Shown piece by piece: positions 8,001 to 53,600 of a stretch of DNA of 64,000 nt. The DNA lies in contig NC_092676.1 of assembly GCF_964355755.1 (NCBI RefSeq), positions 15,456,871-15,520,870 on the forward strand, in the 5' to 3' direction. The translations under genes and the position numbers were made by a program. The notes beneath the pieces were generated by a model. That model saw only the letters and a program-made list of their open reading frames with translations. It was not told the DNA's origin and did no database searches. Numbering within the stretch: position 1 is the stretch's first letter; every line of letters starts with the position of its first letter. The stretch is from Antedon mediterranea. Lineage: Eukaryota; Animalia; Echinodermata.

Positions 8001-11000
8001 AGCTTTCGCGGTATTTACGTGGTACAAACTTCATCGCCCAGTCTAAAACAATTAGGGCACAACCAGGATTCAAATCTCCTAAAATATCATGTTGTGCAGC
8101 GTCTTGGTTAATGGATCTTAAATATGACTGCTCGACTAAGAATTAGGTCTACCTCACTATCGATGCCCGTAAACCTAAACATGGATCTGTGTGCAGCGAT
8201 TTCCTTCTGGCATGCTTGTAAAGGTAGAACTTCAGTGCTCTGTTTGCGGTCTTTTCTATCGATTCCACAAGCTCCACCAACAACCGATTTAAAAGAACAT
8301 GAAATCTCCATGTTGTTTGAACTTAAAGCCATCAGACAATAATTATATATAAGAATTATTTTCAACACGTCTTTACATTGTAAGACATAAACTAAAATGG
8401 ATAACAAATCAGTTCAGTTGTCAACGTCAATGAAGATATCATTGTCTATGGAATATACGCAGTAAAGTGTTTTGTCTACTGTGGTTAATGTTTTGAAACA
8501 TTCTCGTTGAGTAAGTACGACCAGGTTCGACAAACGGGAAAACGATAACAAGTTAAAACAAATGTGTTTTTAAGTTTTATGCTATAAACTACGAGAGGAT
8601 GGAATAATTTATAATAATATGGTTTGACAAAGCATAAGCGAGTGATTTTTAGTTAATTGCTTAATTTCGTATATTGGTTAGTAATTGAAATTTTACAAGA
8701 AACGTATTTTAGTTTGTGTTTAAATTGCAACTTAATTCAAAATTATTCCAGGAACTTTCAGTTTATCTTTCAAGTTTGTTTCTCGTAATAAAAGTTTGGC
8801 TCAAAGCGACTTAGATTCCTAAATAGAGAACAATAGGTAGATTTAATTGATCTTGCCAACAGATAACATTCTTTACAACTTCGTGGCTCTGGCGCGGAGC
8901 GCATAATGGTTTCCCCAATTTTGTTTTACTTGATTCATAAATATTAGTATCTATACTTCAAATTGATGATTTTTTTATTTAAAAAAATTTCGTCGCACAT
9001 GAAAAAAAACTCATTTGTTTTTGCCCTACTTTTTAAGAGTTTTATATATGCTAATGCTAATTAGTAATTAATTAGTAAAAATCTTAGAATTTCATCAAAT
9101 TTTTTGAAACTTTATTAAATTATTGTCAAGATGCTAGTTAATGTAAGTCTAAAATATTAAAACGCTAGGTTGCTACGTTTGGCTTCCAGAGGCTGTTAAA
9201 CTTAATGTAAATTATACACCAAAAATTAACAAAATTGGCCGAAAATCGTTATTTTTCGATTTTCTCGAAAACTAAGCGATATTTTACCAAACAAACTACA
9301 CATCAGGTTTACTTACATCAAGGTCTACCAATGTGGAAAATATGAGCCAATTCGAAATTTTGACCCTTGCCACTTAATGATGATTTTTAGTGACTGGCTC
9401 TCTTAAATTACAAGTAATTTAACTCTTCCGTGATAAGAATACTTTTTTTTGATGACCCAATATATATTTGATTAAGCTGCGTTGAGTAATCAGTTTAAAA
9501 AAAGATTTTTTCAAATATATATTTGATCATCAAAAAAAATCTTTTATCAATGGATGATACATTATATTGTTTTGAAATACAAAACAGTGTATTGTCCTTC
9601 GTGGAAACAGTGTATTGTCCTTCGTTGAGTGCAGACGTGTTTGAGCGGAGCTCTCACACGTATACGTTTTTAGATACAGTACTCGCTTACCTGTGATAGC
9701 ATGTTGCAAGGATAAGCTACTAACTGCATGAGACCTGTATACCTACCTGGATAGTGAACGTATCGGTTGCATTAAATATAGGTACACTTTTGTTATTTAT
9801 TCTAACTAAACATCTACAATGGCCAACGTGGAAAACAATGAGCCAAATATTTCTAATTTAAATATTAGCGCCGCTGAACCGAACACCTGGCTGTCGACTC
9901 TCATCAAGTCAATCATGGGCTGCAAATCCATTGCTGATATTAAATCAACATTATGCGACGCAGTCACCAAGATTGTCTCCTTGGAAAAAGACATTACCAT
10001 CCTCAATCTTGAAATCACCGGTTTACAAAAAGAACTGAGGAATTTGCACGCCGATATGCAGGAAAATTCTGATTGAATCATGGATGTTAAGCTGAAGGAT
10101 ATTGCCGAGGATACGCAGCATCTTAATATTAGAAGTATTACGCATAAAGTTAATGATCTCGAATGTCTTTTGAATTCAATTAATAACAAATTTTCCCTAA
10201 TCGGTATCAGTGAAACATGGCTTAATGAAAACTCCCCTATTCCTTTCATTAATAACTACTCCTTCTTTGCAAGCAATAGAAGCAATAATCAAATTGGCGG
10301 AGGAGTTGCATTTTTTATACGTAATGATATTAGCATTACAATTCGAAATGACTTAAAATTACCAGACGACCTGTCCGAATCACTTTTTGTTGAGATTGAA
10401 AATTCAAAGACAAAAAATGATATTATAGGCATTATTTACAGAGCCCCCTGTGGAGGGCTAGATTCTTTTACTAAATCCGTCGATAATGTATTAACCCAAA
10501 TTAACAATGAAAACAAAAATTTTCATCTCATGGGAGACTTCAATATTGATTTATTAAAATAAATATACTTCTTGACGGAATTCAAATTGAACGCAAAACT
10601 GAAACACTTTTTTTAGGTGTATATATTCATGAAAACCTCAAATGGACCAGTCATCAAAATTACGTTTTGAAAAAAATATCAAGATCTATTAGTATTATTA
10701 ACAGACTTAAGCACTTCTTCCCTCTAAATATTTTAATTTCTCTTTATAACACACTTGTACTTCCTTATTTCCAGTATTGTAACATTATTTGGGCTGCAGA
10801 TTACTCTTCTAATATTGCTAGATTAACTAAATTACAAAAACGTGCAGCTAGAATTATTACTTTTTCACCATATAGAACCTCATCTGAACCCCTTTTTAAA
10901 CGTCTTGGTATATTAAAATTAACGGATATCCACAATGTTCAAGTTGCCAGTTTTATGTTTAATTATTTTAAAAACCAACTTCCTATTTCTATGATTGATA

Positions 11001-14000
11001 TGCTCTGTAAACGTACCAAATTTCACAATTACAATTTAAGAACTTCTCATTTAAACATTCCTTTTGCTAGACTTACTAAAACTAAATTTTTTATAACTAT
11101 ATCAGGTCCTAATTTGTGGAATCATATCCCACCAAATATCAAAACGTCAATATCATTATTTACTTTCCGAAAAAAGTTAAAGAATCATTATATATCTAAA
11201 TATTATACTGCTTAGTTAATATGCTTATTATCATTATTTATACTCATATACTATTTATGTCTTACACAAAATATTAGTAGTTGTTTATTATTGCAATCTT
11301 TAATTTATACTATATATAATGTATATATAGTATATACTATATATATACTGGAATTATAATTTATGTATACATATTTTTTTTTTCCATTTACCAATATCGG
11401 TAGTTATTTCATTTATAATTATCATGAAACTATTGAAATATAATTTAAATAATTTTTATAAAGAAGATGTTAGTTATGTTATTATACTGTAATTTTTTAT
11501 CCTAAATTATATAATTATATATTCTAGGTTATTTTTTATTTTTTTAGTAATGTGTTTTGTTGTGGGTCCCTACGAGACAAGTTTTTAACTTCTAGAAGAG
11601 ATCCATGATAATAATGACTACCAATTACTGCTTTATCTATGTTCACTTTAATATCTTTTTTCTATTTTGTATATATTCATTCATTATTATCTAAATAAAT
11701 ATTATCTGAATCTGAATCTATCTCCCAACATGTTGTTGACAATATAGTATTTAGTAATTAATTTTAGTATTTTTAATCCACAAAATGTTTCTTTTTTACA
11801 TTTGATTGGTTGATTATCATGAGCTGTTATTTTCTTCTATTTTAACAATTAAATGCACTAATTGATCGTACTGTAGGCTTTTTATAAAATTATTTCTGTG
11901 CGACCAGAAAAATAAATGTGTGGAGTGAACTGTCTATAACTGCTTTGCTCCGCTGTCAGAGCAAATGCTTCTTTTATAGCCCAAACATTCAAAATCTAAT
12001 TATTGAATGTATTATAAAATAAAGAGTCTTGTATTCATTGAATCTATACAGTAGAACATTTCAGTTAATCGTTCAACTCATGAGAATATTCTCCCCATTC
12101 AACTCATGAGAATATTCTCCCCATTCAACTCATGAGAATATTCTCCCCATTCAACTCATGAGAATATTCTCCCCATTCAACTCATGAGAATATTCTCCCC
12201 ATTCAACTCATGAGAATATTCTCCCCATTCAACTCATGAGAATATTCTCCCCATTCAACTCATGAGAATATTCTCCCCATTCAACTCATGAGAATATTCT
12301 CCCCATTCAACTCATGAGAATATTCTCCCCATTCAACTCATGAGAATATTCTCCCCATTCAACTCATGAGAATATTCTCCCCATTCAACTCATGAGAATA
12401 TTCTCCCCATTCAACTCATGAGAATATTCTCCCCATTCAACTCATGAGAATATTCTCCCCATTCAACTCATGAGAATATTCTCCCCATTCAACTCATGAG
12501 AATATTCTCCCCATTCAACTCATGAGAATATTCTCCCCATTCAACTCATGAGAATATTCTCCCCATTCAACTCATGAGAATATTCTCCCCATTCAACTCA
12601 TGAGAATATTCTCCCCATTCAACTCATGAGAATATTCTCCCCATTCAACTCATGAGAATATTCTCCCCATTCAACTCATGAGAATATTCTCTACATTCAA
12701 CTCATGAGAATATTCTCCCCATTCAACTCATGAGAATATTCTCCCCATTCAACTCATGAGAATATTCTCCCCATTCAACTCATGAGAATATTCTCCCCAT
12801 TCAGCTCATGAAAATATTCTCCCCATTCAACTCATGAGAATATTCTCCCCATTCAACTCATGAGAATATTCTCCCCATTCAACTCATGAGAATATTCTCC
12901 CCATTCAACTCATGAGAATATTCTCCCCATTCAACTCATGAGAATATTCTCCCCATTCAACTCATGAGAATATTCTCCCCATTCAACTCATGAGAATATT
13001 CTCCCCATTCAACTCATGAGAATATTCTCCCCATTCAACTCATGAGAATATTCTCCCCATTTAACTCATGAAAATATTCTCCCCATTCAACTCATGAGAA
13101 TATTCTCCCCATTCAACTCATGAGAATATTCTCCCCATTCAACTCATGAGAATATTCTCCCCATTCAACTCATGAGAATATTCTCCCCATTCAACTCATA
13201 CACATTCATTATTTGTATAATAATAACATTTTGAGATTTTGTTTTGTACAATATTTAACAGGTCATTTGAAATAATCATCTTAGGAAAAAAATATTCTAA
13301 ACAGATGAATTTGTTTCATTTTAGGTAAAGGAAAAATTCCAGCCAATTCAACACTTGTTTTTGAGGTTGAACTCTTTGATTGGAAAGGTGAAGATTTAAC
13401 AGAAGAAAAAGATGGTGGTGTCATTGTAAGAATTCAGACAGAGGGAGAAGGTGAAGAAACACCAATAGATGGCTCAACAGTTAAAAGTAGGTGCAATTTT
13501 ATGCTCTAATTAAAATTAAACATTTAAAAGAAAGTAAAAATAAACCTACACATGCTTTTTTCAACTTATAATTAAGTATTAACTCCCTGACAAAAAATAG
13601 GTACGCTTATGTTGACACGGAACTGGGAGGAACTCAACTCAAATATACATTGAGAGAGCGCTTTTGTCAACTTCTAGACCAACTGATAGTAAACCAGTGT
13701 GTGAACGCATATGTAGACACTGGAACCGATTCTGGTTTCCTGGGTGCACAGTGCAATCATTCGTATATTTGCTCGTGGTTACCCATACTGCACTCATTGC
13801 ACAATTCAAAGTTTTCAGTTGTGTTTAGTTCATCTAACTAACTCCCGGGAAAAAGTAGAATTTGTTCAGCTTAACACAACTGTGCATATTTCGAGTTGAG
13901 GTCAGTTACAATCAATTGCTCACACAGTTCAATTGAGTTCTGTGTCGAAATAAGCATACCGTTATACAGTAGTAACGATGTTAACGCAATACCCACTGTT

Positions 14001-19819: not shown

Positions 19820-20420
19820 ACTTTACATTCTAATTTGATATCATTATTATCATAGCATAACAGCTAATACTGCATTCCTTCAAATTACTTTTATACTTTG
19901 TGTATGTTTTTATGTGACTTTATGTTATATTAATTTAAATCTTTATAGTTTAATTTTCAACATAAAAACTTCAATCTTATTAAAAGTTTATTAAACTACT
20001 AGACTGTATTTGATGGGGATAGAATCTTAATGCTTATTAGTATATGGGGATAGTATCAGTATAATAGAGGTTGGATATACTAAATAATAAGTATTAATGT
20101 ACTGTACTGTATAACCTACAACTCATTTTACTGGCATTTTTTTGTAAGAAATATTTCTTGTTACAAATGCTATTTATTGCTACAATTTTTATTTGAGTCT
20201 ATGAATGTTACTACTGGTATTAATATACAATACAAATAAATTAAAAAACAAAGGTACATTTTGTGTTTATATTTTAGGTGCTTGAGTCTTTGTTTAAAAC
20301 TAAAACATCAATCATTAAGTTGTGTCGTGAAATGGTCTTAAATAATAAAACGTTTTGTTGTTTTGTGTGGAATTCACTACCTTCAGAAGCTTTTACTGCT
20401 TCAACTCTCATTTTAACATA

Positions 20421-20879: not shown

Positions 20880-22385
20880 ACGGTGCAGATCCTAGTGGGA
20901 TGTCGAAAATGCTTGTGATGCGCTTTTCCGGGTGGGATGTCGCAGATCCCGATGGGATTGCACTTTTCCCAGTGGATTGGAATGTTGCAGATCCCAGTGT
21001 GATATCGCAGCTCCTGGTGGGATGGCGCAGATTCCGGTGGAATGTGAAATAGTCTGGTGGAATGGTGCAGATCCTGGTGGGATGGTGTAGATCCTGATGG
21101 GATGGTGTAGATCCTGATGGTATGGTGCAGATCTTAGTGGGATGTCACTAATCCTGGTGGGATGGCACAGACCCAGGTGGAATGGTGCTTATCATAGTGG
21201 TATGTCGCACTGGTGGTACGTGTGGCGTAGATCCTGGTGAGATGGTGCAGATCATGGTGCTATGGTGAAGATCATGGTGGGATGGTGCAGATCCTGGTGA
21301 GATGGTGCAAATTCTAGTGGGATGGTGCAGATCCTGATGGTATAGTGCAGATCTTGGTGGGATGGTGCAGATCCTGTTGGTATGGTGCAGATCATAGTGG
21401 GATGGTGCAGATCCTGGTGGTATGGTGCAGATCATAGTGGGATGGTGCAGATCTTGGTAGGATGGTACAGGTCGTGGTGGGATGGTGCAGATCCTGGTCG
21501 GATGGTACATGCAGTTCATGGTGCGATTGTGCAGATCCTGCTGCTAAGGCGCAGATCCTGGTGGGATGGTGCAGATCCGGCCTGATGGGATGGCCCATAT
21601 CCTGGTGGGATGGTGCAGATCATAGTTGGATGGTACATGCAGATCGTGGGAGCGATTGTGTAGATCCTGGTGCTATGGTGCAGATCGTGGTGGGATGGTG
21701 CAGATCCTGGTGGGACGGTGCAGATCCTGATGGATTTGATTTTATTTTATTCAGGTTTCAACATAAAATTACAAGACAAATATTAAAAATACAAAATGAA
21801 ACAAGCAAGGAATTGCACAGAATACAAGAAACCAAGGATAGCCCATAAAGTAGAAAAAACAACTTATTTCCAATGGAGTCCTATACCACTTATTTCTAAT
21901 TGGGTCCTATAATGGTGCAGATCCTGGTGCTATGGTGCAGATCCTGATGATATGGTGGGATGGTACTGCTGATCGTGGTGGGATGGTGCTGCTGATCGTG
22001 GTGGGATGGTGCTGCTGATCGTGGTGGGATGGTGCTGCTGATCGTGGTCGGATGGTGCTGCTGATCGTGGTGGGATGGTACAGATCCTGGTGGGATGGTG
22101 CTGCTGATCCTGGTGCTGCTGATCCTGGTGGGATGGTGCTGCTGATCCTGGTGGGATGGTGCTGCTGATCCTGGTGGGATGGTACTGCTGATCCTGGTGG
22201 GATGGTGCTGCTGATCCTGGTGGGATGGTGCTGCTGATCCTGGTGGGATGGTGCTGCTGATCCTGGTGGGATGGTGCTGCTGATCGTGGTGGGATGGTGC
22301 TGCTGATCGTGGTGGGATGGTGCTGCTGATCCTGGTGGGATGGTGCTGCTGATCGTGGTGGGATGGTACAGATCCTGGTGGATAC
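20880..22385. repeat. GC-rich minisatellite: 20-bp GATCCTGGTGGGATGGTGCA block followed by 23-bp GATCCTGGTGGGATGGTGCTGCT block
   Basis: Directly visible tandem units; they account for the repetitive ORFs at 21148-22388. Confidence 0.93.
21732..21885 (-). mobile_element. Probable 5'-truncated LINE 3' end inserted in the minisatellite
   Basis: On the minus strand: GGACTCCATTGGAAATAAG..stem-like segment, T-rich body, AATAAAATAAAATCAAATC tail. Confidence 0.4.
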
Positions 22386-23214
22386 CACTACATTTTATAA
22401 AACAACTTCATATTAATCACAGTACATTTACTGTCAGAAAACCGAAACCCGATTTTAGCGTCACAATGGATCAGTGATTCAGATATATTTGGTTCTTGCG
22501 GAAATTCATGACAGGCACAATCACTCACATAAAAATACAATAACATACATAATATATATAAGTAAAATAAATATAAACAAGAGTTGTAATAAAGATACAA
22601 AATAAACTACAAGGCGAGGAAAGAATAGTTTAACATAGTTTTGATTATTTGCTGTTTTTATACGTTTCATAAAACCACATGATTATCAAACATTTGTTCC
22701 TAGCTCTAAAAGTCAATCAAGTGTTTATAGTTGTTGGAATTTGTTTGTCTTACACTGTATTTTCTAAAAGAGTGAAATCCCGATTATTTTCGTGCTGTAT
22801 CAAAGGTTATCCACGTCCGTATACACCAACATTTGTTTTTGCACTTTTTTGGTGTAGTAACCAGATATGGTAACATTAAGTCGAACCACCTCATTACTGA
22901 AAGAAATCTGACTAGTTGTGCCAAATTCTTTCCTTCTTTTGTTATGCAAGTTACTGTAAATAAACTAATTTGTACATAAATGTAAATAGTGCAAATAAAA
23001 AAACACTAAAAAGAAGAGTTACGGAACACATTGATAATGCTATACTCTACAAGCAAATAGTTATTGAGTTATTTTTTATTCTCTTTATATTTATTGATAT
23101 TATTTCAATTTGTATGTAATGTAAATGTATGAATGATCTTTTGCAGAGATTTTTTAAGATGTAAGGGGATAGTTAAAATGTATAAATGAAAATATTATAC
23201 AATGACGTTATCCA

Positions 23215-32600: not shown

Positions 32601-35600
32601 GTACCATAAATTAATTTCCTCTAATCATTCTCACTGTATATACCAGCAGTAGTAGCTTTTATATGTAATTTTTGATTTGTTAGTTATTGAATTATTGCAA
32701 AGTAATTAGATTATGATACAGAAGACTGCCACCTTTCATTTATTTATGTTTAAATAAAGTTAAAACTTATGTGATCGGACCTCCTAATAAAAGTATACTG
32801 TTATCTATATAAAAACACTATATAACTGTAGAATAATAGTTTTTAGCTCGGTTAAAAATATTGTTATCATCACATTTTGAGCAATTTTATGTAAACATTT
32901 TCTTTGGAACAAAAGGCAAATAACATAACTAGACGCTAGCAAGAAATTGATAGAAATGCGTTTTAATGACATTTATGAGTTGTACTAAGAACAATGTGTT
33001 TCTTATTTTGGTCATCATTTCCTATAGGTCTAGATTCATCGGCATTTCAACCAAGTTCATGGATCAGTACCGGTACTGTATATCTCTTTTTTGGAATCAA
33101 CCCGATTTTTGTCTAAAGAATTTAAAAAATAGAAAAAAAAATTAAACAAACCTTTGTACTTGTGGCTCGTTCGCCTATACTCTCCAAGATGTAATTCTTT
33201 TCTTGTAATGTAATAGTTGGGTGAGAGGATGGACTGTCATGGCTAATTACTATAAACACAATGGCCCATGTGATACCCATTACACCTAAATACAATTGAA
33301 ACAAGTTAAGGATTATCTGTGGAGGAGATGAGAGCTATCAGGGAATATACACATTCCTCCTATAATACCATGGTCTATACATCGAAATAACATTCTAAAG
33401 TTTAGAGTTTGCTCATCTAAATCATCACAACTCAAGATTGTGTTCTTTTTGATAGATTAAAACAATTATGCCTAACAGCCGTTTAACTAACAGAATAAAT
33501 TAATGAAGTATCACTGATACAATATAGGCCCAAAAACAAATCAGAATTTGGTATATTTATAAATGAAATGTAGTTTTACAGACTTTTTTTTTTACTACCA
33601 GTGTATTTTTTATCAAAATAATTTCAGTTTTTGTTGAAGTTTTTTTACACCAAATACAATTAGTTTCATTCAAAAGTATTAATGTCATTATTTATCTTGT
33701 TCAATTACACTTTGCATTCCAAAGGTAATTCGTAATTGGTTTTTGTTTAAAAATAACCTTACAACTTGTAAATTATCATTTATCTAAAGTATGAAGTAAG
33801 CCAGCGAACTGTCTGGAATTTAGACTATTTCAAGTATTACAAATATTACTTCCAAGAAAAGTTAGCTTCTTTAACAATTTCATCGATATAATACATCTAC
33901 CTTCATAAACACCATTAGAATGTATCTTAAAGGAATGCAGTATTATTTCTTTTAAAATGTGTAGCATTGTAGATATAATTCATATAAAACGAAGTGCGGT
34001 AAAAATTTTTTGAAATTTATTGTTGTTTAGAGTAAAATCGATTTTGAAGTGTAGATTTTTCAAAAAAACCGCGGATTCTCTATGAGCCGCCATGTTTAAC
34101 ACGAAAACGAGGTTGTGACGTCATTGGTTTGACAGAGAAAATCATCCAACTGTGAGACTGCCCGTAGAGCGTGGATGCCTATATATACACAGAGCTAAAT
34201 TAAGATGAATCACGGATTACAACCTTACCAATTAGAACCCAGAAGAAGAAGAAGAAGAAGAAGAGATGTGGAGGAAATAGAAGGTTTAGATAATATTGTC
34301 GCACATGAAGGAGAAGATATAGAATGGAGGAAAGTAAACAAGGAGGAATGGTGCCAATGCGGACGGTGTGAATTGATGGACACTGCTGTGGAATGCCTTT
34401 GTTGTCGGGAAATTGAAAATGTACGAGCGAAGATGAACATAGGATCAGAAAACGAAATGGCATGCATTTTAGACCATTTTGAATTCGAATTTGTATGTTT
34501 ACATCCTGCAGTAATTAGAACTGCACTTGTTGCCCGGACAGACATTAGGCGAGACAGCATCGTTGACCCGATCCCGAACGAAACATTTCGCCTTCAGGCG
34601 TACAGGCAGTTCACCTACTGGGTGCATGACCGCCTTGGTAAAGCCGTACGACGAGTCATCCCAGCCTGCGTCGTAAACAAAATCAGAAAGGACTTTCCTA
34701 GCATTGATGGAAATTATGTTGGATTTAAAGAAGTCGAATAAATCGAATGGTATCAAGATGTTAATTCATAACATTTAATTATCGAATGCATCAAATAGTA
34801 ACATTTTTTATAGCTAGGCTATGCCTACCTAGTTAGGCTAAATAAAAGCCATTTCCTTGATTATAAATTTTGTAATAGACATTATTAATATACTGTAACA
34901 AGAAAGAAGGGCGATTTATTTTAATTCACTTAACAAGGGTATGTAAATAAAAATTAAAAGCAACAAACAGTAACAAGTGTTTTCTGTTTATTATTTGTAT
35001 GCAAGCATTGTATTAAAAGCTGTTCCAAAACAGGGAAGAATCAAATCCAATCAAAATGTAGTTATTTATCATCTGGCCGGCCAAATATGTGAAATATAAT
35101 TCGCGAATATAATTAGACGTATTTTGCAGAAAGTTACTGAGCGTCATCTTACAGCAATTGCACAACAACACAATAATTATTATAATAAACATTTTTGCAT
35201 CGGTAAAATTAGTTTATTCACTATTTTCAGAGAATTTCCTTCAATGCCTTTTTTTTATTAATTCAACCAAAAACTATACACTAATAATTGCATCAAGAAA
35301 ATATTTAAGAAATTGTATTTATAGTAATATAATATGTAAGGTTTCATCTTTAGCAGTTTAAAAAGATTTTTTTACAAAACAAAATAAGCATAAATTAGCT
35401 TTGTTGGTTTTAATGTAAACACACTATGAAAGCAGAAACCTAGTTCTAAAATCTTCAATCGCATCTTCTTTCTCTGGTTTCTCAGAAGAAGCAATGTTTG
35501 TTGGAAGATCTGGTCTGTCTACATAACGTTGACCTAGAACTATAGCGCTATCTTCACGTCGGTCACACACCATTTCCATCAGTCTCTTTCTAAATTCGAA

Positions 35601-38600
35601 GGTTTTGTCTACATAAATTTTCTTCAATACCCACTGCTTCTTGCGTTTGGGAAATGCCAGTCCAAATCGAAGAGTGCCTGTTAGGAAATGCACATAATTA
35701 TTCCTCATTGTAAATATGTCTTTATAGATTACTAATCAACAAATTAAAGAAGCTTTTATAAAACTACTTACCTTCCTCAGTAGTTGCTTGCTGTCTACCA
35801 ACATTCTCATTGTGGTCCATAATTGCCAATTGATGACGGGCTCTCATGCCTTCATAGCTGAAGTGTTCCCTCTTTGGACAATATTTTAACAACATCCCAT
35901 GAAAAACCTCTAGCGATCCTGTAAGAAGGTTAAGCATTAATTTTATTATAAAAATTGTTATATTATAGTGTTTATTATTGTATGTTAAAGAATGTAGTAT
36001 AGCAGGGCTTCTTTTGCCTTTAATTTATTCGAATGATCCCAGAGCAAAAATAGTACATTTCATATATCTTTTTACATACATACCTGTGTGTTTAAAAAGT
36101 GCCATCTTGTGCATATCTTTTAGTAATTTAGTGTTCATAACAACACCCCGAAGTGCATCATGAGCATCGCTACCTGGTGTCAGCCATTCAATTTCATGCA
36201 TGTCCTCCAATAGTGGGTCGTGACTGCACTTGTGGAATTTATCTGCACTAGCCCATTCATGGAGGTTGCAGACGTGCTGTAGTAAAGAAAGCCACTTGTC
36301 CTTAAGGTCCTAAAAGTGAAATATAGTATAAACTATTAAATGAAAACTATTAACATAAATGAATGTTAACATAATAATCAATAAGAATGTACAACACATA
36401 CTGTACTTCAATACAGTATACACAAACAAATCGTGATAAAAAAACAGCTTTAATATAACTTACAGCATAATCGCCATTGCAGGAAGCACAGCACCACCAC
36501 AGATGATTTTTTATGGACGGTATCCAAAATCTAAGGTCTTCGCAACCTTTCTTCTTCGATTTTTCTCTAAGCTTCTTGGTGACGCTTTTAACAACATGAA
36601 AAATGTCAAACTCATGTTTTAATTCGGGGTAGTTCTTATTCATGTCACTTGCAATTTGGACATGTCTATCTGTAGTCACTCCCACGACATTTACATCTTC
36701 CTCTAGAAGGTAGTCAATTGCCCTTGTGAAACCGACTCGCTCCATATTTGTTGAAGCTTGGCCTGGCGCTTCCGATACTTGGACAAGCTCAAAATGAATA
36801 ATGAGCTCACTATTCTCCTCCATCAGAGAATATCCCAAATACTTAGCACTATGGCCAGGCGTGTCACTGCGCCCATCCCCACCAACGAAAATATCTTGGT
36901 AGCGAAATGCATCTATCCATATACCATGGTTTTCATTGTACAGATCATTTATTACAGGGAAAAGGTAAGACCTCTGAATATTGTAAAAATGTTTTTCTGA
37001 AAGCATGTGTAGTTTCATAGTGGTTGCAATGTCAAACATTTTTTGGTATGTGCCACCTGAAAACAAAATCGATGCCGCTAACTCAAGGTTTCCCTTTGCC
37101 ATGTTTCGCACAAGTGGTTGTGATTTCCACCTTCCTCTGTGATTGTTGTGGCATGTCCATTCAAATACAATCATTGTTCCCCGGTACAGTTTATGTATTT
37201 CTAATAGACTACCACACTCTTGGCATGTATTAAAAAGATGGTCCAATGACGACTCATAGACGAGGAAGACTCCATCACTCTTCTTTCTTTCAGCCGTATT
37301 AGTTTCAGAGTCACTATCAGAGCTGCTCGGTGAATATGAGCTATCAGAATCAACATCTGAAAAAGGCATGTTAGATAGAAAAAAATTATTTGATATTTTC
37401 AAGTACAAAAACCTCATCTTTTTTTTTAAAAACCATTCAAATCTTAGCTTTCTTGGTCATAAACAAATAAATGTATTGTAAATGTGCCCATAGTTTTGAG
37501 TTGCAGAACAAATAGTAAACATAAAAAGAATAAATAGTACCTTCATCACTGTCATTATCAGAATTATCTACTTCTGAATCTTCTTCTTCTGGAACTTGTG
37601 GTATGTTTTGTGGGATGCTGGCTGTACTTGAGGCCGATGGACATTTGCGAGTTTTGGCTACAGACTTGGGCTTTTTTTTAAACAGCTTCACATAACTATG
37701 ATCATGCTGGATCTTTAGTGGATCTGCGAAAGTGTCTGTCTGGAATGTACAATTGTAATATTTTGATAAAAAATAGCATTTATATGTAACAATCATTGCA
37801 TTCCATTATTTATTAAGAGCCTTATTTGTATACACTTACTTGTGTTGATGAGTTGACCTTAGTTACTTGTCCACATTTACACCCTTCCGAAAACAAAATC
37901 TCTGGCTGAATTACTTCTACCGAATCTCTTGGTATTGATGTTTCATCTAATTCCACTTGGCCCATATCCAAAACTTTCTGAAAATGAATGCATAAGTTAA
38001 CCATAATCTGCATGTTAGACTTGATGAAGACATGAACAAAATACTCGATGTTACAAAAGCCAAGTGTAGCACCTGATGATCCAAGAGTAATTTTTATCAC
38101 CTTAACTCAACTTCATTCATGAAACAGTAAAATGTTGAAATTTATTTTATATCTACATATTTTCATTTCGTTTTGTGGGAAGATGTTATTTTTTAACATA
38201 ACTAATTAACACCACTAGGCCTAGCTTTAAAATTAAGGGCAATCAACTCAGAATACACAAGCCGTCTAGGCCTACTCCTACTACGGCAGTGCTGGCTAAA
38301 GCAGCTAGCCGCCTAGTTTAGTTAGAGGAGAAGAAAGAGAAGGGCCTCTCGCCTATCTATAGGCCTAACTAGAGCCTGTTTATAGTTTAATAAATACACA
38401 GTATTTTAATTATAATTATCAACAGAGCCGCGCATTATTATTTATATTTTGCTGTAGATTTTCGTAGCTTACCTTTTTAGGCCATCGCTTTTGTTCCATC
38501 AATTTTTGACGATCTTGTCTTCTTTTCGATGCTTCGCTGGCAGGTTTGATATGAGCAAGCTGTGTTGGTACAGCGTCCGGCTTTAATCGCCTTGTTGGTT

Positions 38601-41600
38601 TTCGACCGAGTGACACTTTCACAGAATTGTCTTCAAACATATCTTTCTCAAAATGTTCACTACACACTCGAGAATGTACATTTACATGAGGATTCTCTAA
38701 CTTCAAAGATGCCACCCACTTACGAAGTAAATCTTTATTGTGCAAAGGCAATCGATGAAAGCTGACGTTAACTTTGTTGGTAGATTTCCTGTCTTTCCTA
38801 CTTGATGCATTACTGCAACCGAAAGCCATACAAAATACCATAATTTTTGCTGGACGTACACGGTTACTACCGTTTAAATTAATAAATAAAAAATCAGCAT
38901 ACACTATAAAACGCAAAACTTTGAAGAAACGGGAAAAAAGCGAGAAATTACGGTGAAAATTAGCTGGACAAATACAGTCAACTGACACTACAGTGATATT
39001 CGCACGTGTACAAAGTATACGAAGATCCCGGATGAAGGGACTTCCGCCCCACCACCGATCGTAGCTTCCTGGTTTTTTTCCAAGATGGCGGAGCACCATT
39101 ACCGTGGAACAAAAATAACTAAAAAATCGGATTTTTGCTATTGGTTTCAACTTTTTAATTTATCCTTTGTTTATTTTTATATACATTTTACTATATACAC
39201 TAGTTTAAAAGAAATAATACTGGATTCCTTTAAACGATATATTCAATCCTAATATGGATTGTGGCAAATTGATTAAGAACATCCTTGGTTTAAAAAAATG
39301 AACGATGCATTTGCAAAGGTTGTTGATCTAGTAAACGTGTTGATTCTTATAGCAATGCATTTAGCCAAAATCTATTTTTTATATTATTAGTATTATTTTA
39401 GATAGCATTTTCAAATGATTAATTCCAAATTATTATCACGTATATATATATTCATATATTTGGCTATAGATGTTCAATTTAAATAAGGCACTCAGTTTTT
39501 AAAAAGAAAATTTATTCCCGGGAGAGAGACACTGTTCATTTAGGAGGAGTATTTTTTTTTATCGAGTTTAATCATTATAGAACTTAGTCAAATTGATCTA
39601 TATATTATTTTCACTATGATGTTTCTCAATATATTTTACTTGCAAAGATCAAAAGACAATAAATGACATAGGCTTATAACTGTTTATAGGACATTAACTT
39701 TCTGTTTATCTGAAAACGCAAATATAATATGTTTCAAGAAAAATTTATTTTATTCAATGTTCCAGAAGTATAAAATGGTGATGATGTTGCTTAATTGGAA
39801 ATATTTGGATTGTGAGGTAATAATTATACATCTGAATTACGTACCAAAGAAATAGAAAGGGCTTGGCCATCCTGCGTATTCTACAAGTACGCCCGCTAAC
39901 GGCATACCAACGACTGCCCCAGCGTAAGATCCTGTAATAAAACAAAAATCACAATTAATTATTAATTTTTTTTAATTCATCAGAATACTGCAGTGTGTTG
40001 TCTAATTTATAGCGTGTTTTAATAGATAATTTATTAAAAGCCGATGTTTAATATAAGGAACATTGATCTGAATACCAAACCGGTAATTGTTTAAATTCCA
40101 AAAATGCCCTTACGTAAATTTATATATAGATAAAATCGTATTAAAAAACACAATCACGTAAACACAAAATACAAATTGAAGTTTGAGTCAGTTGCAGTGC
40201 AGTTGCAGTGCAGTTGCAGTGCAGTTGCAGTGCAGTTGCAGTGCAGTTGCAGTGCAGTTGCAGTGCAGTTGCAGTGCAGTTGCAGTGCAGTTGCAGTGCA
40301 GTTGCAGTGCAGTTGCAGTGCAGTTGCAGTGCAGTTGCAGTGCAGTTGCAGTGCAGTTGCAGTGCAGTTGCAGTGCAGTTGCAGTGCAGTTGCAGTGCAG
40401 TTGCAGTGCAGTTGCAGTGCAGTTGCAGTGCAGTTGCAGTGCAGTTGCAGTGCAGTTGCAGTGCAGTTGCAGTGCAGTTGCAGTGCAGTTGCAGTGCAGT
40501 TGCAGTGCAGTTGCAGTGCAGTTGCAGTGCAGTTGCAGTGCAGTTGCAGTGCAGTTGCAGTGCAGTTGCAGTGCAGTTGCAGTGCAGTTGCAGTGCAGTT
40601 GCAGCTCGGCGTCATGTGCAGTGCTGTGGGTCCACTGAAGTACATAATAAAAAGTCTCAATTTGAATCGGTCAGGAGAACCCTTTTAGTAAAAGGGATTT
40701 CGAGAATTAATATACTGTTAATATATACGATATCTGAAAGGAAATGACTAAAAGAAATATGATTTAAAAAAAACCTTAAAAATCTTAAAGGAAATTTTCT
40801 CAGAAGAAAATATTTCTTATTGTCTAAAATAAAACACAAACAATACGTCGTGTAATAACTGAATTTGTAACTCTGATCCGTCTCGAATCAGTCAGTGAAA
40901 TAATGCGTTTTTCCCGCTGCTGCTCTAGCCCGCTACGTCACACGAGATGACTCATTCATTAGATGAAATCAAGCAGCAGTATAGTACTACACTTTGACAT
41001 TTTTGTTAAAATGGAAACTCGACTATAATTTATAGGTACCACCTGTTGAATCCAAAAAACGGCTGGGAAAAGAGTCTAATGACAAATCCCAAAGCATTTC
41101 TGGTATTTATGAGTCCCATGATATTACTATAATTCACTGTCAGATAATCATTGAATTATTATCAAAACAGTCCATTGAAGTTTTTGTTTGTAATAGGATA
41201 CTTGAAGTATCTAGGCTTGATGAAGTGACCCCGAGACTTGACCTTAGCAATAACAATAAGCAAGCAGCGTTTTTTGTAAGAAATATTCTTGTTAATAATA
41301 AGTTTTTTACGAATTCTTAAACTTCCGGAACTTGTTTACAGAAAAAAAAAAACAGCCAACGACCTATCAGAGCCATTTTTTGCATTGCAATATTACATAA
41401 AATAACTATATACAATAGTACCGTGAAATTACATTACAGTTACTTATGTTAAATTCCGGCATTGATAGGCCTAACTAAATCGTGATTTTAAATGAAAGTG
41501 ATTTATCGTTTTAGATTACACGTTTCTATTTCTCACCTGATTTGTACATTACACATTTTTATCGTCGGCGTTCTTTACATGCCTGTGGCTTGAATGAATT

Positions 41601-47600: not shown

Positions 47601-50600
47601 TATCATTAGTCAAGCTTGATGTAACATGGCTATGTAACCCGTGGTAACATAGCGCGCGCATTCACCGGCTGTCAGATTGGCTACTTAGATTACCTATTTC
47701 AAAATTCGATGATGTTAGGCCTACATGCTAAGCAAGTATGGTAATACTTATTCACAATACTTAAAAACGTGATGCAAAGTTAAGATCTTATAAGATATTG
47801 ACTTTGTTCTTTGAATTTCTTTGAATCCCATTAAAAGAGCAGACAAGCAGACTTGAAGCGATTCACGTTATGTTAATTTCATCTTAAGTTTGCAGGTCTA
47901 TACATCAGACGAAATATTAAAAAACAAGTTTGGTTAAAGAAGATTGTCAAGAGAAATATTTAATATATATTGTACTTGTCGCAATTAGTAGAATAATATC
48001 ACCGCATTGATGGTCATAATGTGTAGTTTATTGGTCTTGTTTAAATATGGCTTGCTACTGCAGCCTGCCTGTAATGATCAATTTAACGACACGCTTTATA
48101 TGTAATCTTGACAATCACGGTAACTATAACCATCAAGATTGCCCCTAGGGGTTATTGTGTCTATTTAATTCACTATGCAAATAGATAATGAAGCTGTTAC
48201 GAGGCATTTAAAGAATCATTCTTTCAAATCTATCATTCTCTAAGTGACTAAATGTTTTAAGATTAGTGCATGTGCGCCGTCTATTTGCATACCCCAGGTT
48301 GTTTTGCAAGTATTAATATCACTGACATTTATGGAATATAAAAGATTATTAATTTAAAATAAATAAATAATATTCCATTAAATTTAAAATTTCTATCATT
48401 AGGTTCGTGCAGATTAACAATTATTGGGGTTTTTAAATGCAGCAATTATAATACAGTACTTGCTGATTTATTATAAAAAAATATTATGAAAGTTATAAAT
48501 TTTAGTATAACATAAATTTAAAAGATAATTGTATGAATCTTTGTTGTATAACACAACAATAAATACATTAATTTCTATCACATTGTAATAATAATTCAAA
48601 AGATGAAACATTAATCTTATCAACTGGACTTGTTTGTTGAAATAGTTGATAAGATTTAACTGTTCATTTTATGTTCTACCTGGATGAATGATAACATTCA
48701 TAACTAATAATTTAAAGGGAACGATTAATTAAGATGAAGTCGGTAAAGGACGACCTGTATCATCCAACAGCTTAACAGTCAAATACTAACGTAACACAAA
48801 TCGACCAGTAACGCAATCTATTAACCACTAACGTAACACAAATTAACCAGTAACGCAATCTATTAACCACTAACGTAACACAAATCTACCAGTAACGCAA
48901 TCTATAAACCACTAACGTAACACAAATCAACCAGTAACGCAATCTATTAACCACTAACGTAACACAAATCAACCAGTAACGTAATCTATTAACCACTAAC
49001 GTAACACAAATTAACCAGTAACGCAATCTATTAACCACTAACGTAACACAAATCAACCAGTAACGCAATCTATTAACCACTAACGTAACATAAATCAACC
49101 AGTAACGCAATCTATTAACCACTAACGTAACATAAATCTACCAGTAACGCAATCTATAAACCACTAATGTAACATAAATCAACCAGTAACGCAATCTATT
49201 AACCACTAACGTAACACAAATCAACCAGTAACGTAATCTATTAACCACTAACGTAACACAAATCGACCAGTAACGCAATCTATTAACCACTAACGTAACA
49301 CAAATTAACCAGTAACGCAATCTATTAACCACTAACGTAACACAAATCTACCAGTAACGCAATCTATAAACCACTAACGTAACACAAATCAACCAGTAAC
49401 GCAATCTATTAACCACTAACGTAACACAAATCAACCAGTAACGTAATCTATTAACCACTAACGTAACACAAATTAACCAGTAACGCAATCTATTAACCAC
49501 TAACGTAACACAAATCAACCAGTAACGCAATCTATTAACCACTAACGTAACATAAATCAACCAGTAACGCAATCTATTAACCACTAACGTAACATAAATC
49601 TACCAGTAACGCAATCTATAAACCACTAATGTAACATAAATCAACCAGTAACGCAATCTATTAACCACTAACGTAACACAAATCAACCAGTAACGTAATC
49701 TATTAACCACTAACGTAACACAAATCAACCAGTAACGCAATCTATTAACCACTAACGTAACACAAATCGACCAGTAACGCAATCTATTAACCACTAACGT
49801 AACAAAAATCAACCAGTAACGCAATCTTAATAACCACTAACGTAATACAAATCAACCATTAACGCAATCTATTAACCACTAACGTAACACAAATCTACCA
49901 GTAACGCAATCTATTAACCACTAACGTAAATCAATCAGTAACGCTATCTATTAACCACTAACGTAACACAAATCAACCAGTAACGTAATCTATTAACCAC
50001 TAAAGCTTGGTTCCCACTAGAACGTAACGCAAGGACGTAAACGCAACGCAAGCGTTTTAACCAATGACAAGCGAAGTTATAGACAGTTAGCAATCACAAG
50101 CGAATAAGCCATCGCTTGTGATTGGTCAATTCACTTGCGTTGCGTTACGTCCTTGCGTTGCGTCGCTAGTGGGAACCACGCTTAACGTAACACAAATCAA
50201 CCAGTAAAGCAATCTATTAACCACTAACGTAAATCAACCAGTAACGCAATATATTGACCACTAACGTAAATCAACCAGTAACGCAATCTATTAACCAGTA
50301 ACGTAACACAAATCAACCAATAACGCAATCTATTAACCACTAACGTAACATAAATCAACCAGTAACGCAATCTATTGACCACTAACGTAAATCAACCAGT
50401 AACGTAATCTATTAACCACTACCGTAAGACAAATCAACCAGTAACGCAATATATTAACCACTAACATAACACAAATCGTGTTACGTCCTTGTGTTGCGTC
50501 GCTAGTGGGAACCACGCTTAATGTAACATTAACCACTAACGTAACACAAATCACCCACTAATGTAACATTAACCACTAACGTAACACAAATCACCCACTA

Positions 50601-53600
50601 ATGTAACATTAACCACTAACGTAACACAAATCACCCACTAATGTAACATTAACCACTAACGTAACACAAATCACCCACTAATGTAACATTAACCACTAAC
50701 GTAACACAAATCACCCACTAATGTAACATTAACCACTAACGTAACACAAACCAACCAGTAACGCAATCTATTTACCACTCAAGCTTGGTTCCCACTAGAA
50801 TGTAACGCAAGGACGTAGACGCAACGCAAGCGAGTTAAAAATCACACACGGCTGTTCGAATAATCCATCGCTTGAAGCGTGGTTCCCACTAGCGACGCAA
50901 CACAAGGACGTAACGCAACGCAAGTGAATTGACCAATCACAAGCGATGGCTTATTCGCTTGTGATTGCTATACTGTCTATAACTTCGCTTGTCATTGGTT
51001 AAAACGCTTGCATTGCGTTTACGTCCTTGCGTTACGTTCTAGTGGGAACCAAGCTTGAGATTGGTCAGATCACTTTGCGTTGCGTTACGTCCTTGCTTTG
51101 CGATCTAGTGGGAACCAAGCTTTACGTAACACAAATCAACCAGTAACGTAATCTATTAACCACTAACGTAACACAAATCAACCAGTAAAGCAATCTATTA
51201 ACCACTAACGTAACACAAATCAACCAGTAACGCAATCTATTAACCACTAACGTAACAAAAATCATTTTCTATCGCAATCTATTCCCCACTAATGTAACAA
51301 AAAATCATCCACTAACGTAGGTCTAATCTATTAAACCCACTAAACGTAACACACTTTATTAAGCGGGGTTCCCACTAGCGACGCAACGCAAGGACGTAAC
51401 GCAACGCAAGTGAATTGACCAATCACAAGCGATGGCTTATTCGCTTGTGATTGCTAACTGTCTATAACTTCGCTTGTCATTGGTTAAAACGCTTGCGTTG
51501 CGTTTACGTCCTTGCGTTACGTTCTAGTGGGAACCAAGCTTTATAACCACTAACGTAACAAAAAAACACACTACTAAAGACATTCTAAACTTCATGTTTA
51601 TTTTCAGTTTGAAGTTTATGAATTTAAAGCTTTTTTTTTCTATCGGGTTTTGTTTAACAAAAATACATTCTGTGTTATTCTTTCAGTGCAATCATTGGCT
51701 CTGGATAAATTCGATGTAATGCAACCATAATCTCTTATGTATGTGTTGGGATATATCAACCACGTACACTTAACAATGCATTGTTGTTTCCTTGGAAATC
51801 TCATTCCCAATGTGTGTAGTTTTGAAAATATTTTTGTTGAAATTATTTATTAACATTTATTTATTTTTATCCGCATGAATGTATATTCTTTGGCATGTTA
51901 AAATAACTTGTAATAAAATGTGTTATGAACACAATATAAAACTCAATATCTGTCTGTTATAATATCTCCGCATAATGTCTTTGACTATTTTGTATTTCAA
52001 CATCAACATAACAGGTGTAGTAATAAAGGTGTATGCATGACTTGCTAGTGAACAAGTTCTACTATAGCCCCTTGTATATGCATAATTAGTAATCAATATT
52101 TAAATAAACAAAGGTCCTAGTCTAGTTTCTTGTACACATTTTCTCTTTACCTCTTATAGCACATCAATTTTACAAATTAAACAATATTGTTGGGAGCTGT
52201 CGTGTATACATTTATTGAGATTGCAATAGAAGTAAGTTTAAATACGCGAAGATTGTCAATATTATCATAAATTTGCTCTATCAATCATGTGTAAAGATTT
52301 GAGATCAATTGATATACATATATATATACATTCGTTTAGCAGATATTTTCTAAAATTAATTTTCCGCCATGTTTTGCCGCACCTCCCATGACATTCTATT
52401 ACAACTGGTACAACAACGTGCAACAACATCCTTCCACGATTCTACCATTATTATATATGTTACTGCAGAGTGCATGTATTTATTTTATATTACTTTAGTT
52501 CCTATTATTCTACAAGTTTCTGCCCTATGAATATTCATTTATTCTGTTACTTTCTTATTTGCATTCTTATTTACATATTATTTGCCAAGTGTGCACAGTG
52601 TGCTGTTTCTCCTTTGTTTGCCTTGTCCTGATTTTCTTTTGTTCTGCTCAGTTGTTGTTTGCCTGTGCAAGGGTACAGGTCTGTGCAAGTGCATAAGCAG
52701 CCATTATTTTTTTTTTACCAGCTCTAGCTCTACAGTTTATTATTTACACTTTATTACTATTGGATATTTCTGGGATTTTACTTTGCAAATGTTGAGATTA
52801 TTGTGGATGGTGCATATTAAAGGAAGTACTTTAAACATTAATTTTACTCTTTTGATTTCTGTATGTTGTGAGAGCTGCGTACATTAAAACAAGGAATCAA
52901 CAGCAGCTGACCTAATTGGTAGATCCAATTAAATTATAACTTATATACGAGCAACCACAACATTATCAAGTACTACTCTCCACCTTAAATATACTATAGG
53001 CCTATTCCACCACCAGAAAGTACAAAATTATCACTTGTAAGCGCCACCACTACGAACTACCGCGACCTTAATATTAATAATCTCTACAACCATAATTATA
53101 TAATACTCATAATGGCTACTTTATCATTATAATCACATTAGACGTATTCGTCTGATCACTCGCATCGCAAACACCTCGTAGTTACTCCCAATGATCGCAT
53201 GAGGAGGCTGATCAGAGCTAGCTCAAAACAGCCCAGCCAAATACCTACCCACTATTGCCAACTGGAAGTTATTCAAGTTATTTAGAACATTTTTAGTTAA
53301 ACTGGAAACTTTATTTATGAGTAAAAAGTTGTGATTTCGTGTCTTTGTCATCCGCAGTTGATGTTTTGAGAATGTTAAGGCAAAAAACTCACAAGATCAT
53401 AGCAAGGAACAATGACACGTGACTTACCTCCACCAATCCCTGTAAGATTCGTATGAAAATAACGAGTGAATAGTGGACATTACACGCAAACGGAATACAC
53501 ATATTAAGAATGGATGTACTGAAGATAGCAATGCAAAACACTCTACAAAGAAAAAAAGAACACCATATTGTTAGTGAACCATAACTATTTCAACTGGTCA

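What the first reader, a model, noticed from the sequence alone, without database searches (positions are those of the whole stretch)
34205..34741. Transposon-borne homolog of the P2X7 receptor's Zn/guanine-nucleotide-binding ballast domain
Seen: WCQCGRC, CLCC, ACI and PAC supply at least seven Cys, followed by R.QAYRQF..W and [15 protein letters not shown] at the very C-terminus, with no transmembrane or P2X ectodomain. Known: the vertebrate P2X7 tail has a dinuclear Zn-Cys cluster and a GDP/GTP site and ends IRKEFP...GQYSGFK; free-standing nanor-like relatives exist in invertebrates. Inference: many genes annotated 'P2X7-like' are transposon accessory genes, the receptor's ballast may have been captured from a Kolobok element, and transposition might be guanine-nucleotide regulated (the THAP-containing P-element transposase uses GTP). 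Some basic residues of the P2X7 pocket look substituted here (RH to RL, CR to VV), so nucleotide binding is uncertain. The KolX-P2X7 link may already have been noted in the literature.
Basis: partly seen in the sequence, partly recalled or inferred. Interest (0 to 1): 0.8.

Follow-up and report, generated by a model that had tools for sequence, protein, structure and literature searches.

The report
Young Kolobok transposon's KolX helper gene
This is the small cysteine-rich second gene (KolX) of an intact and likely recently inserted Kolobok jumping gene in a feather-star-type genome; its kinship with the tail of the vertebrate P2X7 receptor is real but was published in 2022, and the protein likely helps the transposase in a way nobody has tested.

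Summary
Observation confirmed. ORF 34205-34741 (178 aa) matches Pfam P2RX7_C (E 2e-18). Its model (pLDDT 88.5) matches only P2X7 among solved folds (VIA Z 12.2, next 3.0). It lies tail-to-tail with an intact 7-exon, 741-aa THAP-DDE transposase inside a 5299-bp Kolobok element with 26-bp TIRs and TTAA duplication. Near-identical transposase copies and an empty-site contig suggest a young family. The headline inference, that the P2X7 ballast came from Kolobok KolX, is already in print (Kojima & Bao 2022, PMC9587614). The scan noted the same thing 19 times in at least 6 genomes. Census: 24 of 24 homolog loci with 2 kb or more downstream have a tail-to-tail Kolobok transposase. All seven Zn cysteines are kept, but only 2 of 5 rat GDP contacts. 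R574 is matched in 0 of 151 homologs and K583 in 1 of 149, while an Arg that P2X7 lacks is near-invariant. GTP regulation is therefore unsupported. Verdict: new member of a known kind, low interest, good test substrate.

The parts
33927..33930 (.). Left TTAA target-site duplication
   Evidence: empty-site joint 33926->39230 leaves one TTAA
33931..33956 (+). Left terminal inverted repeat, 26 bp, begins AG (5'-RR)
   Evidence: 25 of 26 bases match the right TIR
34205..34741 (+). KolX gene, single exon, 178 aa. Acidic/basic N-terminal arm; Cys7 cluster (C50, C52, C55, C66, C67, C87, C155); basic-aromatic C-terminal lobe (R129, Y133, G145, R149, R161, Y171)
34742..35423 (.). Convergent 3' region between the two stop codons, with polyadenylation-like hexamers on both strands (untested)
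35424..38841 (-). Kolobok transposase gene, 741 aa, 7 exons (38841-38473, 37977-37840, 37739-37541, 37356-36464, 36309-36084, 35918-35772, 35677-35424). THAP at aa 4-93; D396, D465, E612; DxxH at 486-489; H545/H550/C561/H563 zinc-finger-like motif
   Evidence: six GT-AG introns and no internal stop; 741 of 741 residues equal to a RefSeq protein; THAP E 2.3e-16; D396 39/39, D465 39/39, E612 37/39 in alignment A3
39204..39229 (-). Right terminal inverted repeat, ends CT (YY-3')
39230..39233 (.). Right TTAA target-site duplication
33125..39971 (-). Host context: the element lies between two exon-bearing frames (39840-39971 and 33125-33334) of an SLC17/VGLUT-like transporter gene, so it is inferred to sit in an intron
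   Evidence: exon-like frames from 26318 to 53890; MFS_1 E 2.1e-5, below the curated cut-off; VGLUT2 E 1.9e-8

Best explanation
The ORF is the KolX accessory gene of an intact Kol0-lineage Kolobok DNA transposon (33931-39229), and its product is predicted to be a zinc-cluster, non-catalytic protein that likely assists the element's own transposase by binding a phosphate-bearing ligand, more likely nucleic acid than GDP. Shown: element ends, TSD, intact transposase, ballast fold match, conservation pattern and tail-to-tail linkage across relatives. Inferred: the two genes are transcribed convergently from the two ends. The THAP-DDE enzyme binds the TIRs, cuts the element out and inserts it at TTAA. 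KolX folds around two Zn ions held by seven Cys. Its near-invariant R129, Y133, R149, R161 and Y171 would form a basic surface that contacts DNA (element ends or target) in the transposition complex. A P2X4-like gene later captured such a gene as its tail (published) and gained H547, R574 and K583, which would have made the pocket a GDP site. Confidence: about 0.97 for identity as Kol0 KolX, about 0.45 for the nucleic-acid-cofactor mechanism.
For: TIR 25/26, AG...CT termini and TTAA TSD fit the Kolobok definition read in PMC9587614 section 3. The transposase is intact and has the DxxH signature. The fold matches P2X7 only: Foldseek's 14 matches at E up to 0.001 are all P2X7; VIA Z 12.2, rmsd 3.0, 119 aligned, next row Z 3.0 of 48,161 chains. 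All seven Cys are present together in 123 of the 136 homologs that span them. Linkage among 67 metagenome loci: tail-to-tail transposase in 35 of 42 with 1 kb or more downstream, 30 of 31 with 1.5 kb, 24 of 24 with 2 kb (10 of 10 sequence clusters), never on the same strand. KolX and transposase identities co-vary over 17 dereplicated elements (Spearman 0.42, 136 pairs, 1 of 2000 permutations as high). For a nucleic-acid ligand: residues 125-178 have pI 9.65; R149 is kept in 147 of 151 homologs where P2X7 has F566, and position 150 is K/R in 94 of 151; one fish protein model fuses THAP to the ballast (P0146).
Against: No function of KolX has been tested here or in the papers I read, and DNA binding is inferred from charge and conservation alone. 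No DNA-binding fold stands out. Several Kolobok lineages lack KolX altogether, so the chemistry does not need it. Co-divergence is expected of any two linked genes and does not show cooperation. The census rests on one motif pattern and on loosely defined clusters, many of them near-duplicates. The whole protein is not basic (pI 6.25). The empty-site joint has only 25 bases on its short side, and the runs may be the assembly's own sample.
Confidence: 0.85

Rival explanations
1. KolX is a guanine-nucleotide sensor: it binds GDP/GTP in the ballast pocket and gates transposition, with KolX-specific R149/R150 standing in for the basic residues that only mammalian P2X7 has.
For: R546 and R578 equivalents are kept in 149 of 154 and 145 of 152 homologs; Y588, G590 and F591 in 134/148, 121/148 and 123/147. 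R149-R150 align next to A567/L569, named as GDP contacts in PMC9859053. Rump et al. 2020 suggest from homology models that invertebrate domains may bind GDP (PMC7016195). The isolated human ballast binds GDP (PMC9574498).
Against: H547 is matched in 20 of 154, R574 in 0 of 151 and K583 in 1 of 149; 120 of 149 homologs keep only 2 of the 5 contacts and none keeps more than 3. The P2X7 pocket is partly walled by a helix of the neighbouring subunit. A search for Kolobok + GTP + transposase gave 5 papers, 4 listed, none on this topic by title or abstract start.
Confidence: 0.2
2. KolX does not touch the transposition complex but acts on the host, for instance as an anti-silencing or chromatin factor or a protein-interaction module, which would explain why hosts have kept it as nanor and as receptor tails.
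For: The domain has been reused outside transposons: P2X7 and nanor, and protein models with Ig or MHC-I-like ectodomains. The human ballast binds calmodulin. Many Kolobok lineages do without it.
Against: No direct evidence. The strongest conservation is on basic and aromatic residues of one lobe, which suits a fixed chemical ligand.
Confidence: 0.25
3. The ORF is a host gene or passenger fragment (a truncated P2X7-like gene) that happens to lie in a transposon and has no role in it.
For: Close relatives are named 'P2X purinoceptor 7-like' in NCBI. Internally deleted derivatives that cut through KolX are abundant in a second organism's run (joint 34595->38479).
Against: Fixed tail-to-tail linkage in 24 of 24 informative loci, co-divergence, and near-invariant Cys and Arg among proteins only about 30-45% identical. 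Deletion derivatives are normal non-autonomous copies.
Confidence: 0.03

Closest known systems
KolX of the Kol0/Kolobok0 lineage of Kolobok DNA transposons (type Kolobok-1_XT; Kojima & Bao 2022, PMC9587614)
   Same: Two-gene element with DDD/E transposase plus ballast-fold KolX with seven Cys; TTAA TSD; RR...YY termini; DxxH signature.
   Different: Only the host and family. 'Antedon' and 'Anneissia' have 0 hits in the paper's four supplements (Figure S6 gave only its legend). Repbase itself could not be searched.
Cytoplasmic ballast of vertebrate P2X7 (PDB 6u9v, 8tr5, 9e3m; Pfam PF20478)
   Same: Fold (Z 12.2, rmsd 3.0), seven Cys, R546, Y550, P570, C572, R578, Y588, G590, F591.
   Different: Free-standing, with no channel. 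Sequence match covers only about residues 464-593. H547, R574 and K583 read L, V and S; there is an LG[KR]xxR loop with invariant Arg where P2X7 has QDMADF.
Zebrafish nanor and invertebrate ZCD-only proteins (PTHR36981; Rump et al. 2020, PMC7016195)
   Same: Short ballast-only proteins that keep R546 and R578 but not the other GDP contacts.
   Different: nanor is thought to be domesticated; this gene is still inside an intact element.
MuDR mudrA/mudrB (recalled, no call)
   Same: Related DDE superfamily with a small second gene transcribed convergently with the transposase.
   Different: No sequence or fold relation of MURB to KolX was tested; analogy of layout only.

Membership tests
Kolobok superfamily | TTAA 4-bp target-site duplication | tested here: met
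   33927-30 and 39230-33; empty site with one TTAA
Kolobok superfamily | TIRs with 5'-RR and YY-3' termini (unlike piggyBac) | tested here: met
   AG...CT, 25 of 26 match; definition read
Kolobok superfamily | DDD/E transposase with C/DxxH signature and a zinc finger before the last E | tested here: met
   D396, D465, D486xxH489, H545/H550/C561/H563, E612, conserved in 39 homologs; catalytic roles assigned by conservation, not assay
Kol0/Kolobok0 lineage | Second gene is KolX with ballast fold and seven conserved Cys | tested here: met
Kol0/Kolobok0 lineage | Transposase groups with Repbase Kol0 families in a tree | not tested
   Reference alignment (Data S5) was not obtained. The exon translation shows no CCHC finger after the first D, which argues against KolobokP/E/D/5
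P2X7 ballast as Zn site | Seven Cys at rat positions 477, 479, 482, 498, 499, 506, 572 | tested here: met
   C50, C52, C55, C66, C67, C87, C155. That these seven are the ligands is recalled from McCarthy 2019, which was not held; metal binding itself is untested
P2X7 ballast as GDP/GTP site | R546, H547, R574, R578, K583 | tested here: not met
   2 of 5 kept (R129, R161); L130, V157, S166 substituted
P2X7 ballast as GDP/GTP site | Measured nucleotide binding | not testable with these tools
   needs purified protein
P2X receptor | Two transmembrane helices and ATP-binding ectodomain | tested here: not met
   178-aa single-exon ORF, only PF20478 matches

The most novel reading that the evidence does not exclude
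KolX is the ancestral nucleotide-sensing module: a third, KolX-specific invariant arginine (R149) completes a phosphate pocket with R129 and R161, ties Kolobok transposition to a nucleotide signal, and this ready-made switch has been captured repeatedly as the cytoplasmic tail of immune membrane proteins (P2X7, sea-urchin Ig receptors, a frog MHC-class-I-like protein).
Probability: 0.15. Interest if true: 0.7.

Novelty: new member of a known kind. Interest (0 to 1): 0.22.

Why it matters
The evolutionary story is published, so the locus adds no new concept. Its value is practical. It is a compact, intact two-gene Kolobok that appears young and insertion-polymorphic, so it could be used to ask what KolX does and whether the ancestral ballast bound a nucleotide. 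That bears on the open question of what the Zn/GDP ballast of the inflammation channel P2X7 is for. The census also shows that 'P2X purinoceptor 7-like' labels on short invertebrate proteins are often transposon genes.

Tried and rejected
Complex prediction of KolX 36-178 with transposase 255-741 and 2 Zn gave no verdict (score 0.00 in both runs, alignments not used, controls not folded); it is no evidence either way. No whole genome is held, so no genome-wide copy count or census. McCarthy 2019 was not held. The ESM Atlas did not complete. Expression: no RNA holder listed; run X7 is only guessed to be RNA, and no joint at a predicted intron was listed; nothing follows on expression. Syn/nonsyn counts in KolX from run variants were too few or came from decayed copies: 3 syn and 3 nonsyn in organism B, 5 and 13 in X7, one X7 contig with a 1-base deletion (4 rows of that table were not shown); no test of selection. 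Viral contigs: 0 loci returned with the single protein (2 of 5 stretches passed tblastn but none was served) and 0 of 60 with the alignment. Prokaryote genomes: 1 of 4 stretches, which looks like animal contamination. The search for longer fused homologs found 2 proteins among 7169 candidates and no P2X7, so no tree of P2X7 against KolX was built and the direction of capture was not tested here. No shared subterminal motif over 9 bp between the two ends beyond the TIR. No DNA-binding or nucleotide-binding family is excluded by its absence from the fold lists.

Full report
Only Pfam P2RX7_C matches it (E 2e-18, residues 21-175). Against PDB sequences, 4 of 5 hits at E up to 10 are P2X7 (E about 1e-5) and the fifth is at 0.39. 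A profile of 106 homologs hits the same four at E 4e-22 to 4e-20 and nothing else at E up to 1. The AlphaFold2 model has mean pLDDT 88.5. Foldseek's 14 matches at E up to 0.001 are all P2X7. VIA-align over 48,161 chains gives 6u9v at Z 12.2, rmsd 3.0, 119 aligned, and the next row at Z 3.0. Z 12.2 is near the level that helical models can reach by chance according to the tool's note, but it stands far above all other rows and agrees with the sequence match.

The element. An inverted repeat joins 33927-33956 and 39204-39233. Read in detail it is TTAA, a 26-bp TIR starting AG (25 of 26 match), 5299 bp of element, ending CT, then TTAA. These are the Kolobok criteria given in Kojima & Bao 2022 (section 3 read). 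On the minus strand seven exons with GT-AG introns give an uninterrupted 741-aa protein (two other last-exon acceptors also gave open frames of 755 and 759 aa). The 741-aa model is identical at 741 of 741 positions to a RefSeq protein of the crinoid Antedon mediterranea. It has an N-terminal THAP domain, D396 and D465 invariant in 39 aligned homologs, E612 in 37 of 39, and a D486xxH489 signature. The two genes are tail-to-tail, 682 bp apart. The element lies between exon-like frames of an SLC17/VGLUT-like gene, so it is inferred to be intronic.

Age. The transposase cluster has 10 members, all from that species. Full-length ones differ from P0009 at 1 and 2 of 741 residues and a 627-aa one at 1 of 627, on contigs of different lengths. 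In run X2 contig depth is about 94-310 across the element and 13-23 in the flanks; the tool warns this is not a copy number. One X2 contig joins 33926 to 39230 (depth 11.3, 25 bases on the short side). In X1 a contig leaves the window at 33931 and continues with the right-flank sequence. This is an empty site with one TTAA. X1 and X2 share a sample that may be the assembly's source, so a heterozygous insertion is the simplest reading. A second organism holds a close copy (74 differences and 68 gap letters over 3391 bases) and a deep internally deleted derivative.

A metagenome scan with an 8-sequence alignment gave 178 pattern matches, of which 67 were relatives. With a transposase profile, a tail-to-tail transposase was found in 35 of 42 loci with 1 kb or more downstream (16 of 18 clusters), 30 of 31 with 1.5 kb (13 of 14) and 24 of 24 with 2 kb (10 of 10). 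None was on the same strand. Of 31 loci with 1 kb or more upstream, 3 (2 clusters) had a divergent transposase. The other 25 of 67 loci had under 1 kb downstream and are left out of the downstream counts. Over 17 elements dereplicated from 29 with both genes, KolX and transposase identities correlate (rho 0.42, 136 pairs, 1 of 2000 permutations). This shows long linkage, not cooperation. The sample is biased by one motif and by many similar contigs.

Zn and GDP sites. I aligned 154 homologs (7 and 147, which lists the best 150 of 4845 representatives at E up to 0.001). Each of the seven Cys is kept in 96-99% of the rows that cover it, and all seven together in 123 of 136. The rat GDP contacts R546, H547, R574, R578 and K583 are taken from Rump et al. 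2020 (passages; section 11). R546 is matched in 149 of 154 and R578 in 145 of 152, but H547 in 20 of 154, R574 in 0 of 151 (V in 129) and K583 in 1 of 149. The query keeps 2 of 5. KolX has instead G145 (140 of 153) and R149 (147 of 151) where P2X7 has D562 and F566, next to A567/L569, which contact GDP (PMC9859053 passages). Rump et al. had already seen that only R546 and R578 persist outside deuterostomes and left binding open. The R149 point was not in the passages I read; the KolX alignment figure (S6) could not be read, so I do not claim it as new.

Mechanism. Cut-and-paste by the THAP-DDE enzyme at TTAA follows from the family. For KolX I favour a Zn-stabilised, non-catalytic cofactor whose basic C-terminal lobe (pI 9.65) binds phosphate backbone in the transposition complex (about 0.45). 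Rivals are a host-directed factor (0.25), a GDP/GTP sensor (0.2) and a passenger (0.03). All functional steps are inferred.

Literature. Kojima & Bao 2022 (PMC9587614; abstract, sections 3 and 10, passages containing sections 12 and 16, supplement term search) state that KolX adopts the ballast fold, that P2X7 arose by fusion of a P2X4-like gene with KolX, and that nanor is likely domesticated KolX. In the passages read their support is an alignment. It was the only paper found for Kolobok + KolX and for P2X7 + ballast + transposon. PMC9574498 (passages) shows the human ballast 395-595 is a trimer that binds GDP and calmodulin. I found no functional test of KolX in searches; subscription journals and Repbase Reports are not covered. 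The scan's own notes hold 19 findings with the same words in at least 6 genomes, none by sequence or in this genome.

Verdict. Real, well-preserved and already explained: a new family member of Kol0 Kolobok with its KolX gene. The guanine-nucleotide idea remains possible but the residue pattern argues against a P2X7-type GDP site. Interest 0.22.

Noticed in passing
P0166: A RefSeq model from the frog Hyperolius riggenbachi (4 isoforms) joins MHC class I alpha-2 and C1-set domains, a hydrophobic segment and a complete seven-Cys ballast as its tail. If the splicing is real it is another capture of KolX by an immune membrane protein. No paper found for 'ballast domain' + 'MHC class I' + amphibian and no scan note. 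It may be a gene-model fusion.
   Followed up: partly
P0116: Sea-urchin (Lytechinus pictus) protein with IgV, IgC2, a transmembrane-like segment and a ballast tail; the same architecture as earlier scan finding e1-8152567.
   Followed up: partly
P0146: Pipefish protein model with THAP fused to a ballast; Rump et al. mention a similar tick protein.
   Followed up: partly
L002 766-4539; L003; L004: Kolobok-like elements with an intronless THAP-DDE gene and KolX head-to-head instead of tail-to-tail. L002 has 129-bp inverted repeats (99%) that reach the contig end.
   Followed up: partly
L068: A fragmented tail-to-tail KolX plus transposase pair next to retrotransposon-like ORFs and a CA microsatellite in a contig of a bacterial MAG; looks like animal contamination, not a bacterial KolX.
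   Followed up: yes
window 26318-53890, minus strand: Multi-exon SLC17/vesicular glutamate transporter-like host gene spanning the element.
   Followed up: partly
window 4032-9007: Long imperfect inverted repeats (four blocks of 42-140 bp, 84-90%, from 4032-4328 and 8707-9007) around about 4.4 kb; probably another DNA transposon.
   Followed up: no
window 11916-13300, 20900-22430, 40180-40620, 48700-51540: Tandem arrays of 26, 20/23, 11 and 42 bp; the last is mixed with nested inverted repeats of up to 185 bp at 99% (50001-50185 / 51359-51543), MITE-like.
   Followed up: no
window 19865-19906: 74% inverted match to the element's left end (33904-33945); possibly a decayed end of a related element.
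   Followed up: no
P0010: An acorn-worm transposase is 64% identical over the catalytic exon, well above the next hits (46% or less); could reflect descent or transfer, untested.
   Followed up: no
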